Positions 7,681 to 13,600 of a stretch of DNA of 64,000 nt are shown in pieces. Numbering within the stretch: the first letter of the stretch is position 1; every line of letters begins with the position of its first letter. This DNA is from Anolis carolinensis (lineage: Eukaryota): assembly GCF_035594765.1 (NCBI RefSeq), contig NC_085842.1:162763036-162827035 (forward strand), given 5' to 3'. Made by a program: the position numbers.

Positions 7681-10600
7681 GTGAGTAGATCAATAGGTAC
7701 CGCTCTGGCGGGAAGGTGACGGTGCTCTATGAAGTCACGCCAGCCACATGACCTTGGAGGTATCTGCGGACAACGCTGGCTCTTTGGCTTAAAAATGGAG
7801 ATGAGCACCAACCCCCAGAGTGGGACACGACTAGACTTAATGTTAGGGAAAAACCTTTACCTTTACCTTACAGAACAGGTACATTTTTTTCCCAACAATA
7901 CATGGAAGGCCACATTTCCCAACCTAGGTCTACAGGAATGTATAAAAACAACAGTGAGTATAAGCTCACAGGCTTGTGCTCATTTTTCTCACTATGGCAT
8001 ACACTGAGCAATACCAAACAATGAGCTTTTATAGTGTGCTTGCAAACAATCATTTTTCGGAGCCTAGAAAGCCTACCAGTCATATTGATTTGCATCTTGC
8101 TGCAGCCTCACATCAAACTGTTTTATAGCACTTCAAACTGTTCCCTGCAACATCTCAAATTAGTCCCTAAAAGCATGACTCCTTGACGGGAAGGGGGTAA
8201 GGAGATGAATGTCTACTAGATATGTATATGTGTTTACACACAGAGAGAGCTGACACACAGCAGTTTCATGTGTGTGTTTAATATATCGGTTCTTAAACAT
8301 AGTATGTGAAATGATGATTGACTGGTAATTTCCATGCCACTTAGCTGCTGAATCTGTTTAGAGCAGCACTATACAGTGCTGAACCCAAGCCTCAAAACAG
8401 GTTGAATACTTTAGGAAAATTCCTTAAATGTAAGTCTTGACCTCATCAGACGGCCGCCAGCATTACTCCACTTTGTAGAGGGGTGTGGGGAACCCGGCGC
8501 CCCACACCCTGTATTGCCCGGCTCCAGCTGAGAGTAATCAGATGGGGGGAAGCGTGAGTGCGTGGTTTCCCACATAGATTGCAATGGCAACATGGGAGCC
8601 CTCCCATGTTGCCCTGGTGATGGCATGCGCCAGCTCCACCCTCCTTTACCCATCATGTATTGGGATCCAGCCAGCTTGGTGGGTGACCAAGGCTAAATTG
8701 GCGCATGCCGCTGAATTTAGCCCCATATGAAGAGGTCATAATAAGTCTTGGCGGGGATTTGCAGTCCCGCTGACATGGGGCTCCTCAGTTACCACTGCAC
8801 AGAAGTAGTTCTGAACCTGGTAGAGGGGTGGCCAATTAAAGTTACATCTTTCTTTTCATTCTTTTCCTTTCTTTCACAACCTGCTATGGAAATTTGAATA
8901 AAAATAAAGATTAATGAAGGGAAATCAAGTCTGAGCAGACTCAGGCTGACACTCTGGTGGAGTACTATGCCAGCAGCTGCAATTTTTCAAGGCCACACAG
9001 CAGTGACATGAAAAGAGAAACAAAATCTTCTGAGCTGCTGTGAATTTTCCAGGCTGTATGGCCATGTTCCAGAAGCATTCTCTCCTGACATTTCACCCAC
9101 ATCTATGGCAGGCATCCTCAGAGGTTGTGAGATATATATTTATATAGTACAATATAGTAATTTATTGCCAGTATTGTGCTATGCTAATAATATAATGTAT
9201 GTAAATTTAATTTGTAAGATGCTCTGAGTCCCCTTCAGGGTGAGAAGGGCAGGATATAAATGTATTAAATCTATATATATAAAAGGATAAAGTTGTGGGC
9301 ACCGTGACTATAACAACACAACTATACGCCCCAGAACCACCAAACTTGACAACACGACGGAAAAGCCTTGCCTCCAGGTTCATACAACAAAAAAACACAA
9401 CAGGAACCTAAAAAGGGGTTTAAAAAACCCAAAAAAGGCAACAAACCATCTGCGCCTGCGCCAAAAGCGAGCCTGCGCGCGGACAGAACAACCCCCACCC
9501 CACCTCTCAACGGCTGCACCTGCCCCCGACGCTGCTGCTGCCATCTTGCCGAACAGCCCCGAGCCACCACGTGCCAGGAGTAGGAAAAAGGCAGCCCCCA
9601 CAGCTGGCCGCTCTGCCTAGGCGAGCCTGGGAATTCCATTTAGGCCTAAAGGGGCGGGTCTACTCACAGCAAGTCGAGCCGGTGGTGAGGTCCTGGACCT
9701 CGACGCCAGGGTAGCCCTCACACTGCCGGCAGCAACAGGCCTGCAGGGCGCTGTGCCAGCCCAACATGGGCTCAAGCCTCCCAGTTGCCTCTCCTGGCTC
9801 ACCCCTCACCACCCTGGGGGAGGGGGAAGCCAACTGGAGACCAAACTGGATAGTCAAACTCTGGGCCTCCTGGCCCTCTGGATGCGGGGGGGGGGGGCCG
9901 CGGGGCTCCTCGGTCACTTCTTCCCGCACCGCCGCCATCACCCGTCCTCCAAACCCCGAGAAGGAGCACGCCCCACACCACCCGGAGATTAAGAGCCCAC
10001 AGGCACACCAGCGAGTCGCTATTCCCGCAATCGCCACACTACTCCACAAACCCAAGTGGCCTCCCAAGTGACCGGGGGGGGGGGGAGTGAAAAAGGGCCA
10101 GGTGGCCGCCTGAGGCCTCAGAAAACACCGTGCTGAAAAGGGCGGCAGCTCGCACCCCTCTTCCTGCGCCGCCCCTCACCACCCTGGGGAGAGGGGGAGT
10201 CGGATGGAGACCAAACTGCCCACCCAAACTGTGGGCCTCCTGGCCCTTTTGATGGGAGGGGGCAAAAAGGACACACACCGCCTCGCTCACACTTCCCAAC
10301 ACAGCATTAGCCCAGCCAGGAATCACCCAGGCTTCAAACCTACAAGGCAGGAAACAATCAGGGTCAACTAATACCTCCCAACAAAGGATTCCACCAGGCA
10401 GGAATCAGCCAGGGCTTGAAGCTACAAGGCAGGAAACAATCAGGGCCAGCTAATACCTCCCAACAAAGGATTCCACCAGGCAGGAATCCGCCATGGTTTG
10501 AAGCTACAAGGCAGGAAACAATCAGGGCCAGCTAATACCTCCCAACAAAGGATTCCACCAGGCAGGAATCCGCCATGGTTTGAAGCTACAAGGCAGGAAA

Positions 10601-13600
10601 CAATCAGGGCCAGCTAATACCTCCCAACAAAGGATTCCACCAGGCAGGAATCAGCCAGGGCTTGAAGCTACAAGGCAGGAAACAATCAGGGTCAGCTAAT
10701 GCCTCCCAACAAAGGATTCCACCAGGCAGGAATCAGCCAGGGCTTGAAGCTACAAGGCAGGAAACAATCAGGGCCAGCTAATACCTCCCAACAAAGGATT
10801 CCACCAGGCAGGAATCAGCCAGGGCTTGAAGCTACAAGGCAGGAAACAATCAGGGCCAGCTAATACCTCCCAACAAAGGATTCCACCAGGCAGGAATCAG
10901 CCATGGTTTGAAGCTACAAGGCAGGAAACAATCAGAGCCAGCTAATACCTCCCAACAAAGGATTCCACCAGGCAGGAATCAGCCAGGGTTTCAACCTACA
11001 AGGCAGGAAACAATTAGGGCCAGCTAACACCTCCCAAAAAATGATTACCCCACTCAGGAAGCAGACCGCCTTTCAGATTACAAGGCATTAAAATCTAATC
11101 AAGGTGACTAATAACAGCATTCATACCTGCTGCAACAAGACTACTCATTGTATTCCAGCTCATCAAACAAGGATTCCCATATAAAGAAAACGGCCAGGCT
11201 TTCAGCCTGCAAGGCTATTCAGTGCTATTCCACCTGGCGAACAAAAGATTACGAAAAGCCACAGCAACGCGTGGCCGGGCAAAGCTAGTATTAAATAAAT
11301 ATACAGTATTTGAAACTATGCAAGGGGGGTTTATATATCTGTGGAAGGCCAGGGTGGGAGAAAGAACTCTTGTCTGTTGGGGCCAAGTGTGAATGTTGTA
11401 ATTAATCACCCTGATTAGTATTTAATGGCCTTGCAGCTTCAAGGCCTGGCTGATTCCTGCCTGAGGAATCCTTTGTTGGGAGGTGTTATCTAGCCCTGAT
11501 TGTTTATGTCTGGAATTCCCCTGTTTTCTGAGTGCTGTTCTTTATTTTCTGTCCTAATTTTAGAGTTTTTTATATTGGTAGCCAGATTTTGTTCATTTTC
11601 ATGGTTTCCTCCTTTCTGTTGAAATTGTCCACATGCTTGTGGATTTCAATAGCGTCTCTGTGTAGTCTGACATGGTGGTTGTTAGAGTGGTCCACCATTT
11701 CTGTGTTCTCAAATAATATACTGTGTCTAGGTTGGTTCATCAAGTGCTCTGCTATGGCTGACTTCTCTGGTTGAGTTAATCTGCAGTGCCTTTCATGTTC
11801 CTTGATTCGGGTTTGGGCAATGCTATGTTTGGTTGTCCCTATGTAGACTTGTCCAGAGCTGCATCGTATATGTTAGACTCCTGCAGAGGTGAGAGGATCC
11901 CTCTTGCCCTTTGCTGGAACGTAGGTAGTCTGTAGATAGTTTGTAGGTTGTGTTCCTTCATTAGCTTTCCTATGTCATCAGTGGTTCTCTTGGTGTATGG
12001 TAAGAACACCTTTCCTCTGGGTGGATCTTTGTCTTTACTCCTGTGGCTTGTTCTTGATCTTGCAGCTCTTCTGATGTCTGTGGTTTCCATTGGCCTGTAG
12101 AGCCCAGTTTAGGTGGTTCACCTTGGAGGAGATGGGGTTCACAGATTCTTTTTGCATGGTCTGCCAGGGCTTTAATTGTGCTTCTTTTTTTACTTGGGTG
12201 ATGGTTGGAGTTTTCTATTTGTGTGTGCAGGTTTTCTGTAAACTGTGTGGCCCAATTGTTGATTGGGTTTGCGGGTGAATAGGACATCTAGAAATTGCAG
12301 TTTTCCTTCGTTTTCTTTTTCCATGGTGAATTGGATATTTGGGTGGACTGGATGCTTTTGAGGTGGTCCAGGAACTTGTTTAGTTCTTCTTCCCCATGGC
12401 TCCAAATGGTGAAGGTGTCATCAACATATCTGAACCATATAATGGGCTTTTTGGTGCTGTTTCAGGAATCTCCTGACTCTAAGCAAACAGTCTCTATGGT
12501 GACTTCCTACCTTTGTGGCTACTGCACCTGGAGGTTTTTTCCTGCTACTGTCATGTGCACCAATGTGTGTTGCCAACAAGATTCTGTCCATAGATTCCAA
12601 GCCCACAAGACCCTACCCTGTCTTCAGAGAAACAGCAGAGAGGCAGCCACACAAGTGCACGCATTCATGATTTACTTTCTGTTTCTAGACCTTGTAAATG
12701 CATGCCAATATCTCATCACCATCCTGTTCTTCAGAGGGTTGATTGCTAAACTTACAGATTGATCTAAGATGAGACTGACTTGATATAGGAACTAATGAGG
12801 TTGAAAGACACAAATGTCTTCCTAAAGAAGATAAGGCAGGGGCCATGACTCATTCTTGGTATATCACTCTCCTTTCCCTTCTGATAGGAATGGATAGATT
12901 TGCAGAAACATGATGGGGCTCTGCAATAAAAGAAGCAAAGTGACAGGTGGACACAGGCCCCATGGAGCAGGGAAGAAAGCCAAAGAATTAGCATGGTAGT
13001 CATTAGCAGAATGACTGCACTTCTGTTGTTTTGAAAAATCTGGATCTCTTGGCTGGGTTCCTCCATCACATCAGCACAGCATAAACATCCACTGGCAGAG
13101 TTACATTATGCTTATATTACACAGACCCTATATTGAATACCAACATTGCCCAACATATGTGGACAAATAGTCAGTGTACTTGGCTGACATCCCATTGCAC
13201 AATTGCACTTGCTGCAGCACTTAAGGAAAACATGTAACAATTTGTTTGTAGGGCGTTTGTTTGTTTGTTTGTTTTGTTTTTTTGGTGTGGTCCTGTTTGT
13301 CTTCATAGTTGCTGTGCACTTCGTACTACTTTCCAAAACTTTAGTACGCATAGTTACTTGTATCAATAAAATGTCATGTGTATATGCCTAGCATCCCATT
13401 AGTGACCTATGTAGGTGTTCCTTGTATAACGCAACAAACCCTGTGTATGTCACTGAGAGGATGACAGGCATATAAAAATACTATAAATGTGTACATCATT
13501 TTGAAAAAAGCAGTCATCAAAATGTGATACACTTCTGGCTCAATTACTGTGCAGTTCCTATGCTTACAGCAGAGTTTTCCAAACTGTGTATCATGACACT

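What the first reader, a model, noticed from the sequence alone, without database searches (positions are those of the whole stretch)
9270..11288. Helitron carrying cargo, at the centre of a three-level nest (Penelope > L2-like tail > Helitron)
Seen: canonical rolling-circle ends (A|TC ... hairpin ... CTAG|T) enclose 2019 bp with no transposase. The interior is a mosaic of ~900 bp GC/CpG-rich DNA and a Penelope-derived array. The Penelope host resumes colinearly afterwards (compare the uninterrupted copy at 17910-18450). Established: Helitrons capture host fragments. Inference: this is a chimeric non-autonomous family spreading promoter-like DNA and retroelement-derived satellite.
Basis: partly seen in the sequence, partly recalled or inferred. 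Interest (0 to 1): 0.72.

Follow-up and report, generated by a model that had tools for sequence, protein, structure and literature searches.

The report
Cargo-carrying Helitron nested in lizard repeats
A 2-kb rolling-circle transposon with no genes of its own sits inside two older repeats of an anole-type lizard genome, carrying a stolen gene start and a short repeat array; elements of this kind are already described in anoles.

Summary
Window 9270-11288 is a 2,019-bp insertion with every structural Helitron mark: 5' TC, 3' CTAG, an 18-nt hairpin 9 nt before CTAG, an A|T target, no target duplication and no terminal inverted repeats. It has no Rep/helicase (0 of 48 ORFs pass a Pfam cut-off). 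The nest is real: a Penelope-like element on the minus strand is split by a ~156-bp A/T-tailed retroposon-like repeat, which the Helitron splits in turn. Uninterrupted copies of both hosts lie in the same window.

The 82-bp x 9.4 array is an amplified piece of the Penelope-like element's 3' end, in sense orientation. New here: the GC-rich block holds, antisense, the start codon and first ~30 codons of a MICAL-like-1-type gene plus ~520 bp upstream. Its closest match is Anolis carolinensis LOC134292393.

The closest relatives of both the host element and the cargo are Anolis proteins. Novick et al. (PMC3014272) describe A. carolinensis Helitron-2N3_AC as 2,000 bp, >1,000 copies, with Poseidon (Penelope-clade) and SINE fragments. 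This is most likely a copy of that or a sister family, so it is not novel. Copy number, shared ends and the "L2-like" label could not be tested: the source genome and repeat libraries were unavailable.

The parts
9270..11288 (+). Non-autonomous Helitron, 2,019 bp, 5' TC to 3' CTAG, inserted between A (9269) and T (11289)
9270..9439 (+). 5' terminal segment of the Helitron (about 40% GC); presumed element backbone carrying the 5' recognition end
   Evidence: GC 39.8%; no match elsewhere in the window. The backbone status is inferred.
9440..9677 (-). GC-rich segment of undetermined origin, downstream (on the minus strand) of the captured coding piece. It has the highest CpG ratio of the element. 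It is either intron or a second captured piece.
   Evidence: 9440-9700: GC 64%, CpG o/e 0.65; sequence read; no Pfam or Rfam match
9678..9767 (-). Start codon and first 30 codons of a MICAL-like-1-type calponin-homology gene, antisense to the Helitron
   Evidence: ORF residues 137-166 match residues 1-30 of turtle 'MICAL like 1' P0028, 19/30, pairwise E 3e-9. ORF residues 80-165 match residues 1-88 of A. carolinensis LOC134292393 (E 3.5e-40).
9768..10290 (-). About 520 bp upstream of that start codon (5' UTR or promoter-like, 64-67% GC), with an internal 106-bp direct duplication (9788-9893 and 10157-10262, 81.7%)
   Evidence: Part of it is read as an N-terminal extension in gene model P0025.
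10285..11064 (+). Tandem array of an 82-bp unit derived from the 3' end of the Penelope-like element, in that element's sense orientation
   Evidence: TRF 10294-11064, 9.4 copies, 94% matches. 8 of 10 register-cut units match the majority consensus at 79-81 of 82 positions. Units are 85-91% identical to 11428-11505(-) and 18164-18240(-).
11004..11143 (+). Last unit, running on into non-repeated Penelope-like 3' sequence; this shows the direction of capture
   Evidence: 11007-11141 to 18240-18108 at 79.6%; three-way alignment
11164..11247 (+). Further, strongly diverged unit-like stretch
   Evidence: 64-74% matches to the units and to the Penelope-like copies, E 1e-3 to 9e-7
11258..11288 (+). 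3' terminal signal: 18-nt hairpin (11258-11275), 9-nt spacer, CTAG (11285-11288)
9132..9269 (+). Left part of the middle host: a short retroposon-like repeat with an A/T-rich tail
   Evidence: 9143-9270 to 56871-57005 at 83.7%; shared 28-nt motif found at 2 places in the window; junction with the Penelope-like host
11289..11306 (+). Right remainder of the A/T-rich tail of the middle host
   Evidence: The boundary is approximate because the sequence is low complexity.
11307..12452 (-). Outer host: Penelope-like element, C-terminal RT/GIY-YIG part of the ORF (degraded by frameshifts) and 3' region
   Evidence: tblastn of Anolis protein P0001: residues 498-801 at 12452-11573. ORF 11573-11872(-) is 87-88% identical to Anolis proteins. 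It is 54% identical to P0019 across that protein's Pfam GIY-YIG region.
9030..9131 (-). Outer host continued past the nest: the start of the next partial tandem unit of the Penelope-like element (pseudo-LTR-type arrangement)
   Evidence: 96.1% to 17937-18038; P0001 residues 1-27 at 9115-9035
17937..18451 (-). Uninterrupted comparison copy of the same Penelope-like region (acts as a paralogous empty site)
56871..57005 (+). Uninterrupted paralogue of the middle host; its A/T-rich tail continues to about 57045

Best explanation
The finding is one copy of a non-autonomous Helitron (rolling-circle DNA transposon).

Shown: it has the terminal anatomy of the class and no Rep/helicase. It lies in the A/T-rich tail of a short retroposon-like repeat, which itself lies in a Penelope-like retroelement. 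The order of arrival was therefore Penelope-like element, then retroposon, then Helitron.

Shown: its interior is cargo. (a) Antisense, it carries the 5' end of a MICAL-like-1-type gene, meaning about 520 bp upstream, the start codon and ~30 codons, followed by more GC-rich DNA. (b) In sense, it carries a ~140-bp piece of the 3' end of a Penelope-like element, of which an 82-bp part has been amplified in tandem to about 9 units.

Inferred from what is established for Helitrons: the copy was mobilised in trans by the Rep/helicase of an autonomous Helitron, which recognises the 5' end and the 3' hairpin plus CTAG, and pasted it between A and T without a target duplication. The cargo was picked up at the DNA level, not by retrotransposition. 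The array grew by slippage or unequal exchange; its central units are homogenised and its edge units diverged.

Most likely (about 0.6) it belongs to the composite Helitron-2 derived families already described in Anolis carolinensis, of the Helitron-2N3_AC type.

Possible but untested: the antisense GC-rich gene start acts as an outward-facing promoter.
For: - Terminal anatomy and target. Left boundary fixed independently by a paralogue.
- Hairpin frequency: 207 of 63,834 18-mers fold as well, and 60 of 2,057 CTRR sites have such a hairpin upstream.
- No terminal inverted repeats: 4 inverted pairs found, none joining the two termini.
- No protein domain: 0 of 48 ORFs reach a Pfam cut-off.
- Nest.
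- Penelope-like identity of the host: 24 of 32 candidates at E <= 0.001. The best are A. carolinensis and A. sagrei proteins carrying RVT_1, at 87-88% identity. GIY-YIG was confirmed through P0019.
- Array origin and direction. The captured piece stops about 160 bp short of where the Penelope-like sequence continues in both window copies. This argues against ordinary retrotransposition.
- Gene cargo: of 1.84 billion representatives, 3 reach E <= 0.001. The best is P0025 (E 3.5e-40, 90% by phmmer, 75/88 by BLASTP), named LOC134292393 [Anolis carolinensis]. P0025 matches turtle 'MICAL like 1' from that protein's residue 1 (E 3e-10 in the database search; 38/97 pairwise). The window ORF does the same (19/30).
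[quoted passage not shown] Penelope/Poseidon is one clade of endonuclease-bearing Penelope-like elements, with partial tandems forming pseudo-LTRs (PMC8557442 passages).
Against: - Only one copy of the termini lies in the 64-kb window (low-stringency BLAST). Shared ends and mobility are not shown here.
- The hairpin is weak in a wider fold (-5.8 kcal/mol, z 0.11).
- The right boundary lies in low-complexity A/T sequence.
- No SINE fragment was recognised inside the element (0 tRNA genes; no other window copy of the GC-rich part). Helitron-2N3_AC is said to contain one.
- The passages I read in Novick et al. mention neither a tandem array nor a gene fragment.
- The window ORF alone gives no significant match to solved CH domains (best E 0.3-0.7). 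The link to the MICAL-like family rests on 30 residues plus the bridge through P0025.
- P0025 itself reaches only E 0.0039 for the Pfam CH domain, below the cut-off.
- Promoter activity is untested, and CpG o/e exceeds 0.6 only in 9440-9700.
Confidence: 0.85

Rival explanations
1. It is a true Helitron copy, but a private chimera. The gene fragment and/or the expanded array arose in this copy alone or in a handful of copies. No family is spreading this cargo.
For: Single copy in the window. Array size is the kind of feature that varies between copies. The published description of the closest family mentions no array or gene piece. Only one protein model in 1.84 billion representatives carries the cargo ORF at high identity.
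Against: A published anole family of the same length with Penelope-clade fragments has >1,000 copies. The termini are intact, as expected of a transposed product. Gene models rarely include such ORFs, so says little about copy number.
Confidence: 0.15
2. The Penelope-derived part was not captured. It entered a master Helitron by retrotransposition of a Penelope-like element, or of a non-autonomous tandem derivative such as a retrozyme-like repeat.
For: Penelope-like elements form tandem structures (PMC8557442 passages). Tandem non-autonomous derivatives of them are reported in animals (bioRxiv 10.64898/2026.07.22.740005; only the search listing and the start of the abstract were seen).
Against: The piece lacks the 3' continuation present in both window copies of the element. 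No hammerhead or any other Rfam family turned up in 8500-12000 at E <= 1, apart from one chance-level viral stem-loop hit at E 0.36. The unit is 82 bp and is cut from the end of the ORF and the 3' region.
Confidence: 0.1
3. It is not a Helitron. An unrelated 2-kb insertion (repair filler or segmental insertion) happens to begin with TC and end with CTAG.
For: The hairpin is not significant in the 61-nt fold. There is no second copy in the window.
Against: A|TC, CTAG|T, a hairpin at the canonical distance, no target duplication, no inverted ends and an A/T-rich target all coincide at boundaries set independently by paralogues. That gives a joint chance of about 1e-5 to 1e-4. Mosaic cargo is typical of Helitrons (PMC4224331 abstract).
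Confidence: 0.03

Closest known systems
Helitron-2N3_AC (also the same-sized Helitron-2N5_AC and the 1,930-bp Helitron-2N2_AC) of Anolis carolinensis, Novick et al. 2011, PMC3014272
   Same: Non-autonomous Helitron of about 2,000 bp, inserted at TA. It is reported to contain fragments of Poseidon, a Penelope-clade element. The host lineage fits: the closest relatives of the window's Penelope-like ORF and of the cargo ORF are Anolis proteins.
   Different: Identity to the consensus could not be tested. No SINE piece was recognised here. The passages read mention neither an 82-bp array nor a gene 5' end.
HelibatN3 and other Helibat elements of Myotis lucifugus
   Same: Non-autonomous Helitrons that captured a promoter and first exon of a host gene (NUBPL) and amplified it to >1,000 copies (passage in PMC2997563). 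Bat Helitrons carry promoters, 5' UTRs, exons and retrotransposon pieces (PMC4224331 abstract).
   Different: The host and the gene differ (MICAL-like-1 type). Amplification and transcription of the cargo are not shown here.
Cg_HINE non-autonomous Helentrons of the Pacific oyster
   Same: Rolling-circle elements whose centre is a short satellite-like tandem array, proposed to spread tandem repeats (PMC7492417 abstract).
   Different: Those are Helentrons of a mollusc. Here the unit is traceably derived from a Penelope-like element, and only one array at one locus was seen.
HeligloriaB in Anolis carolinensis (Thomas et al. 2010, PMC2997563)
   Same: Horizontally transferred non-autonomous Helitron family with 667 copies in the anole. 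Novick et al. link the Helitron-2 lineage to insect Helitrons by lateral transfer.
   Different: The terminal sequences are given only in a figure and supplements that I could not see, so any relation to this copy is untested.

Membership tests
Helitron (rolling-circle transposon) | 5' TC terminus | tested here: met
   9270-9271 are TC. The definition is as quoted in PMC2997563.
Helitron (rolling-circle transposon) | 3' CTRR terminus | tested here: met
   11285-11288 are CTAG
Helitron (rolling-circle transposon) | 16-20-nt palindrome just upstream of the 3' end | tested here: met
   An 18-nt hairpin at 11258-11275 ends 9 nt before CTAG. 2.9% of CTRR sites (60 of 2,057) have an equal one. It is not significant in a 61-nt fold.
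Helitron (rolling-circle transposon) | Insertion between A and T, no target duplication, no terminal inverted repeats | tested here: met
   A at 9269 and T at 11289. The flanks continue the tail of the paralogue without a repeat. No terminal inverted pair was found.
Helitron (rolling-circle transposon) | Rep/helicase ORF (autonomous form only) | tested here: not met
   0 of 48 ORFs of 30 aa or more pass a Pfam cut-off. The copy is therefore non-autonomous.
Helitron (rolling-circle transposon) | Other copies sharing both ends; empty sites | not testable with these tools
   One copy in the window. No source genome was available. Only paralogous 'empty' versions of the two host repeats were seen.
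Helitron-2N3_AC of Anolis carolinensis | Length about 2,000 bp | tested here: met
   2,019 bp here against 2,000 bp in Table 2
Helitron-2N3_AC of Anolis carolinensis | Contains a Poseidon (Penelope-clade) fragment | tested here: met
   Array and 3' piece are homologous to a GIY-YIG-bearing Penelope-like element. Assignment to the Poseidon clade itself was not tested.
Helitron-2N3_AC of Anolis carolinensis | Contains a SINE fragment | tested here: inconclusive
   No tRNA-like head, no Rfam hit and no dispersed window copy of the remaining interior. No SINE library was available.
Helitron-2N3_AC of Anolis carolinensis | Sequence identity of ends and interior to the consensus; host species | not testable with these tools
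   The consensus is not in the text seen. Supplements and repeat libraries were unavailable. The best protein relatives are from Anolis, which gives a genus-level hint only.
Penelope-like element (outer host) | Reverse transcriptase followed by a C-terminal GIY-YIG endonuclease | tested here: met
   tblastn of P0001 (RVT_1, E 8.9e-14) covers 12452-11573. The endonuclease ORF aligns at 54% identity with residues 169-266 of P0019, whose Pfam GIY-YIG hit spans 165-203. The window ORFs themselves give no Pfam hit.
Penelope-like element (outer host) | Partial tandem / pseudo-LTR arrangement | tested here: met
   The ORF start (P0001 residues 1-27) follows the ORF end and its spacer at 9115-9035, and likewise at 18022-17906. 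The feature is as described in PMC8557442.
   No repeat library was available. ORFs near the paralogue at 56.9 kb gave no reverse-transcriptase hit. The literature string search found nothing relevant.
CpG-island promoter (cargo) | GC > 50%, CpG o/e > 0.6 over 200 bp or more (criteria recalled); transcription start activity | tested here: inconclusive
   9440-9700 has o/e 0.65. 9700-10290 has 0.45-0.47. The whole block has 0.51, against a background of 0.22-0.25. Activity is untestable here.
Satellite DNA | Long arrays and/or many loci of the same monomer | tested here: not met
   One array of 9.4 units. The two other window occurrences are single, non-tandem parts of Penelope-like copies.

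The most novel reading that the evidence does not exclude
The family to which this copy belongs may be scattering two things through anole genomes. One is an outward-facing, antisense CpG-rich promoter plus first coding exon of a MICAL-like-1 paralogue, which could seed chimeric transcripts. The 205-aa model LOC134292393 would then be either the donor locus or one such product. The other is an 82-bp Penelope-derived monomer that can grow into satellite arrays. That would make it a reptile case of Helitron-driven promoter shuffling and satellite seeding combined in one element.
Probability: 0.12. Interest if true: 0.55.

Novelty: already known. Interest (0 to 1): 0.3.

Why it matters
The finding is a clean textbook example rather than a discovery. 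One 3.4-kb stretch records three successive transposition events. It also shows a Helitron carrying both a host gene start and a retroelement-derived tandem array.

If the cargo is shared by a >1,000-copy family, that family would place a GC-rich gene start and a ready-made repeat array at many anole loci. This could matter for annotation: gene models such as LOC134292393, and lizard isoforms ending in Penelope-like sequence, may be transposon artefacts. It could also matter for studies of promoter and satellite birth.

The only detail I did not see in the papers I could search is the MICAL-like-1-type origin of the GC-rich block.

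Tried and rejected
- **Rfam, 8500-12000, E <= 1:** one chance-level hit (HCV_5BSL1, E 0.36, 20 bits against a 44-bit cut-off). No hammerhead, so a retrozyme-like reading of the array is dropped.
- **ARAGORN on the whole window:** 0 genes, so no tRNA-type SINE head.
- **Pfam on 37 + 24 window ORFs and 48 ORFs of the element:** there was no Rep, helicase or other domain in the element. One sub-threshold DUF3311 hit (E 0.02) is taken as chance.
- **Weak PELP1_HEAT hit of ORF 51672-52088(-) (E 0.0019):** followed up against solved structures with 0 hits, and dropped.
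- **Window ORF piece (80 aa) against solved structures:** nothing significant (best E 0.3). The CH-domain link was therefore made through P0025, P0027 and P0028.
- **Full-text searches for short strings of the termini, the array unit and the middle host's motif:** only unrelated primer-type hits (4 and 2 papers).
- **Searches for family names:** 1 paper, Novick et al.
- **Helitron + Anolis + tandem repeat + Penelope:** 13 papers hold all four terms and 12 were listed; none is on this by title.
- **Helitron + MICAL terms:** one search found 22 papers and listed 10, all on fungi, plants, fish or flies by title. The other 12 were not seen.
- **The listing of cluster members and the protein Atlas:** not available, so the cluster membership of P0025 and P0027 and the Atlas neighbours stayed unchecked.
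- **Not used:** structure and complex prediction, because nothing here turns on a protein fold. The bacterial genome-contig scan was also not used, because it cannot hold a lizard repeat.

Full report
**What kind of DNA this is.** The window is vertebrate repeat-rich DNA of about 40% GC, with one N run at 61911-62041 that I left alone. I take it for lizard DNA of the Anolis type, not human. The best relatives of a retroelement ORF beside the finding are A. carolinensis and A. sagrei proteins at 87-88% identity. The best relative of an ORF inside the finding is an A. carolinensis gene model. This is a genus-level hint and no more.

**The observation.** All the coordinates hold.
- Base 9269 is A, 9270-9271 are TC, 11285-11288 are CTAG and 11289 is T.
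- An 18-nt hairpin (11258-11275, seven pairs with one bulge) ends 9 nt before CTAG.
- The insertion is 2,019 bp.
- Neither terminus recurs in the window (0 of 100 shuffles give a match).
- No inverted repeat joins the two ends: 4 internal pairs only.

The hairpin by itself is unremarkable in a 61-nt fold (-5.8 kcal/mol, z 0.11, 98 of 200 shuffles as good). Only 207 of 63,834 18-mers of the window fold as well, and only 60 of 2,057 CTRR sites have such a hairpin in the 32 nt upstream.

**The nest.** The boundaries do not depend on the Helitron reading.
- A Penelope-like repeat runs 9030-9131 (96.1% to 17937-18038) and resumes at 11309-11713 (89.0% to 18044-18451). In the second copy these two parts are 5 bp apart.
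- Between them lies a short repeat (9132-9269 plus 11289 to about 11306). Its body matches 56871-57005 at 83.7%, and its A/T-rich tail continues on the far side of the 2,019 bp.
- Homology to that paralogue stops at 9270, the proposed 5' end.

The order of events is therefore Penelope-like element, then short retroposon-like repeat, then Helitron. Combining base-composition odds for A|TC and CTRR|T with the hairpin frequency gives a chance of roughly 1e-5 to 1e-4. This allows for slack at the low-complexity right edge, and it is my arithmetic, not a tool result.

**The outer host.**
- ORF 11573-11872 on the minus strand found 24 proteins at E <= 0.001 among 32 candidates. The best carry a reverse-transcriptase domain (RVT_1 confirmed for P0001).
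- The same ORF aligns at 54% identity with residues 169-266 of P0019, whose Pfam GIY-YIG hit spans residues 165-203.
- tblastn of P0001 places residues 498-801 at 12452-11573, in three frames, so the copy is degraded.
- Residues 1-27 fall at 9115-9035, beyond the nest.

This means the ORF end, a spacer and the start of a next unit follow each other. That is the partial-tandem pseudo-LTR layout described for Penelope-like elements (passages of PMC8557442). The window's own ORFs gave no Pfam hit, so the assignment rests on the relatives. The middle host's 'L2-like' label could not be tested. No repeat library was at hand, no reverse-transcriptase ORF was found near its paralogue, and a full-text string search gave nothing relevant.

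**The array.**
- TRF reports 10294-11064, period 82, 9.4 copies, 94% matches.
- Cut in register from 10285, 8 of 10 units match the majority consensus at 79-81 of 82 positions. The first unit matches at 67 and the last at 54.
- Eight units match the minus strand of the two Penelope-like copies, at 86-91% to 11428-11505 and 85-87.5% to 18164-18240.
- In those two copies the sequence occurs once, not in tandem.
- The last unit runs on into non-repeated Penelope-like sequence to about 11143 (79.6% to 18240-18108). A further, much diverged unit-like stretch follows at 11164-11247.
- The homologous region is the very end of the ORF and the start of the 3' region of the Penelope-like element. P0001 residues 755-835 lie at 18451-18185. 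The units give weak, individually non-significant matches to residues 818-830.

The direction is therefore Penelope-like element to Helitron, in sense orientation. The piece lacks the downstream continuation of the retroelement, which speaks for DNA-level capture rather than retrotransposition. No hammerhead or other RNA family was found.

**The GC-rich block.** Window 9440-10290 has 65.3% GC and CpG o/e 0.51, against 0.22-0.25 in the rest of the window. Only 9440-9700 exceeds 0.6. It contains a 106-bp direct duplication (9788-9893 and 10157-10262, 81.7%).

I searched its longest ORF as one uninterrupted stretch (9663-10175, minus strand, 171 aa).
- Of 1.84 billion representatives, 3 reach E <= 0.001.
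- The best, P0025, matches ORF residues 80-165 with its own residues 1-88 (E 3.5e-40; 90% by phmmer, 75/88 by BLASTP). It is 'uncharacterized protein LOC134292393 [Anolis carolinensis]', 205 aa.
- P0025 in turn matches turtle 'MICAL like 1' (P0028, 930 aa, with CH, bMERB and LIM domains) from that protein's first residue (E 3e-10; 38/97 pairwise).
- The window ORF does the same with residues 137-166 (19/30, pairwise E 3e-9).
- The third hit, P0027, has a significant CH domain (E 9.2e-11) and matches solved CH domains of MICAL, EHBP1 and actinin proteins.

The block therefore holds, antisense to the Helitron, the start codon (9767-9765) and about 30 codons of a MICAL-like-1-type gene, preceded by about 520 bp of upstream sequence.

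Caveats on this reading:
- The window piece alone is too short for a significant match to solved structures.
- P0025's own CH signal is below the Pfam cut-off (E 0.0039).
- Both the window ORF and P0025 have Cys where the turtle protein and P0027 have the Trp of 'AWC'. This suggests a decayed paralogue, not the working gene.
- Whether LOC134292393 is the donor locus or another copy of the element cannot be told here.
- What follows the 30 codons (9677-9440) is unidentified.

**How it most likely works.**
- Shown: the anatomy, the nest order, the absence of any protein domain (0 of 48 ORFs), and the origin and orientation of both cargo pieces.
- Inferred from established Helitron biology (definition quoted in PMC2997563; the transposition mechanism is from my recall of the Helraiser work, which I did not read here): an autonomous element's Rep/helicase recognised the 5' end and the 3' hairpin-CTAG and inserted the copy between A and T.
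- Inferred: the array grew by slippage or unequal exchange, which would explain homogenised central units and diverged edge units.
- Possible only: the antisense gene start drives transcription out through the Helitron's 5' end.

**Comparison with what is known.**
- Passages of Novick et al. 2011 (PMC3014272) list eight A. carolinensis Helitron families. All non-autonomous families are said to be deletion derivatives of two autonomous ones.
[quoted passage not shown] Helitron-2N5_AC is also 2,000 bp.
- Penelope/Poseidon is one clade of endonuclease-bearing Penelope-like elements (PMC8557442).
- Thomas et al. 2010 (PMC2997563 passages) report 667 HeligloriaB copies in the anole. They recall that HelibatN3 captured the NUBPL promoter and first exon and reached >1,000 copies.
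- The abstract of PMC4224331 lists promoters, 5' UTRs, exons and retrotransposons among bat Helitron cargo.
- The abstract of PMC7492417 describes oyster Helentrons built around satellite-like arrays.

Every aspect of the finding thus has a published counterpart, and a family of matching size, content and host is in print. I rate identity with that family, or a sister family, at about 0.6. I could not align to its consensus. I found no SINE piece. The passages I read mention no array and no gene fragment. Piskurek et al. 2009 and Pritham and Feschotte 2007 were seen only as citations.

**What stayed unchecked.**
- Copy number, shared ends, empty orthologous sites and the match to Dfam/Repbase. 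No eukaryotic genome or repeat library was available.
The supplements of PMC2997563 and PMC3014272 may hold the alignments and consensus sequences that would decide family membership.
- The listing of cluster members and the protein Atlas were unavailable.
- On print: a MICAL-type capture by a lizard Helitron did not appear. In one search only 10 of 22 papers were listed.

**Verdict.** It is very probably a copy of an already described anole family. The one added detail is the MICAL-like-1-type origin of the GC-rich block. Interest is low to moderate.

Noticed in passing
window 17937-18038, 18995-19100, 19092-19188 (inverted), 37774-37864, 60378-60468: The ~100-bp module that follows the nest (9030-9131) recurs at five more places at 90-96% identity. 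It corresponds to the first 24-39 residues of the Anolis Penelope-like protein P0001. 18995-19100 and 19188-19092 form a head-to-head pair, as described for Penelope-like insertions.
   Followed up: partly
window 40846-41973: A second, older tandem array: period 134 bp, 8.4 copies, 72% matches. ORFs across it gave no Pfam hit. Its origin was not examined.
   Followed up: no
proteins P0002, P0005, P0009, P0023: Lizard gene models named as host genes share 70-88% identity with the Penelope-like endonuclease ORF (P0023 over only 41% of it). They are AKAP7 isoform X3 and PNMT of A. carolinensis, CAMKMT isoform X3 of Pogona, and a GPCR-family model of Phrynocephalus. Either retroelement pieces are exonised in these genes or the annotation has absorbed them.
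   Followed up: no
window 22258-23214 (-): A 319-aa open frame has a sub-threshold reverse-transcriptase match (RVT_1, E 2.7e-5, 24.4 bits against a 29.6-bit cut-off). This is another retroelement remnant, and tblastn with P0001 did not match it.
   Followed up: no
window 26161-26246: A perfect 28-bp x 3.1 tandem repeat lies beside two overlapping long minus-strand ORFs (26251-26820 and 26277-26759). The one scanned (26251-26820) had no Pfam hit.
   Followed up: no
window 9888-9898 and 10076-10087: There are two homopolymer G runs of 11-12 bases on the + strand (C runs on the minus strand) inside the GC-rich cargo, about 190 bp apart. Each lies about 75-80 bp upstream, on the minus strand, of a copy of the 106-bp duplication.
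   Followed up: no
window 61911-62041: A run of 131 N, left as it is.
   Followed up: no
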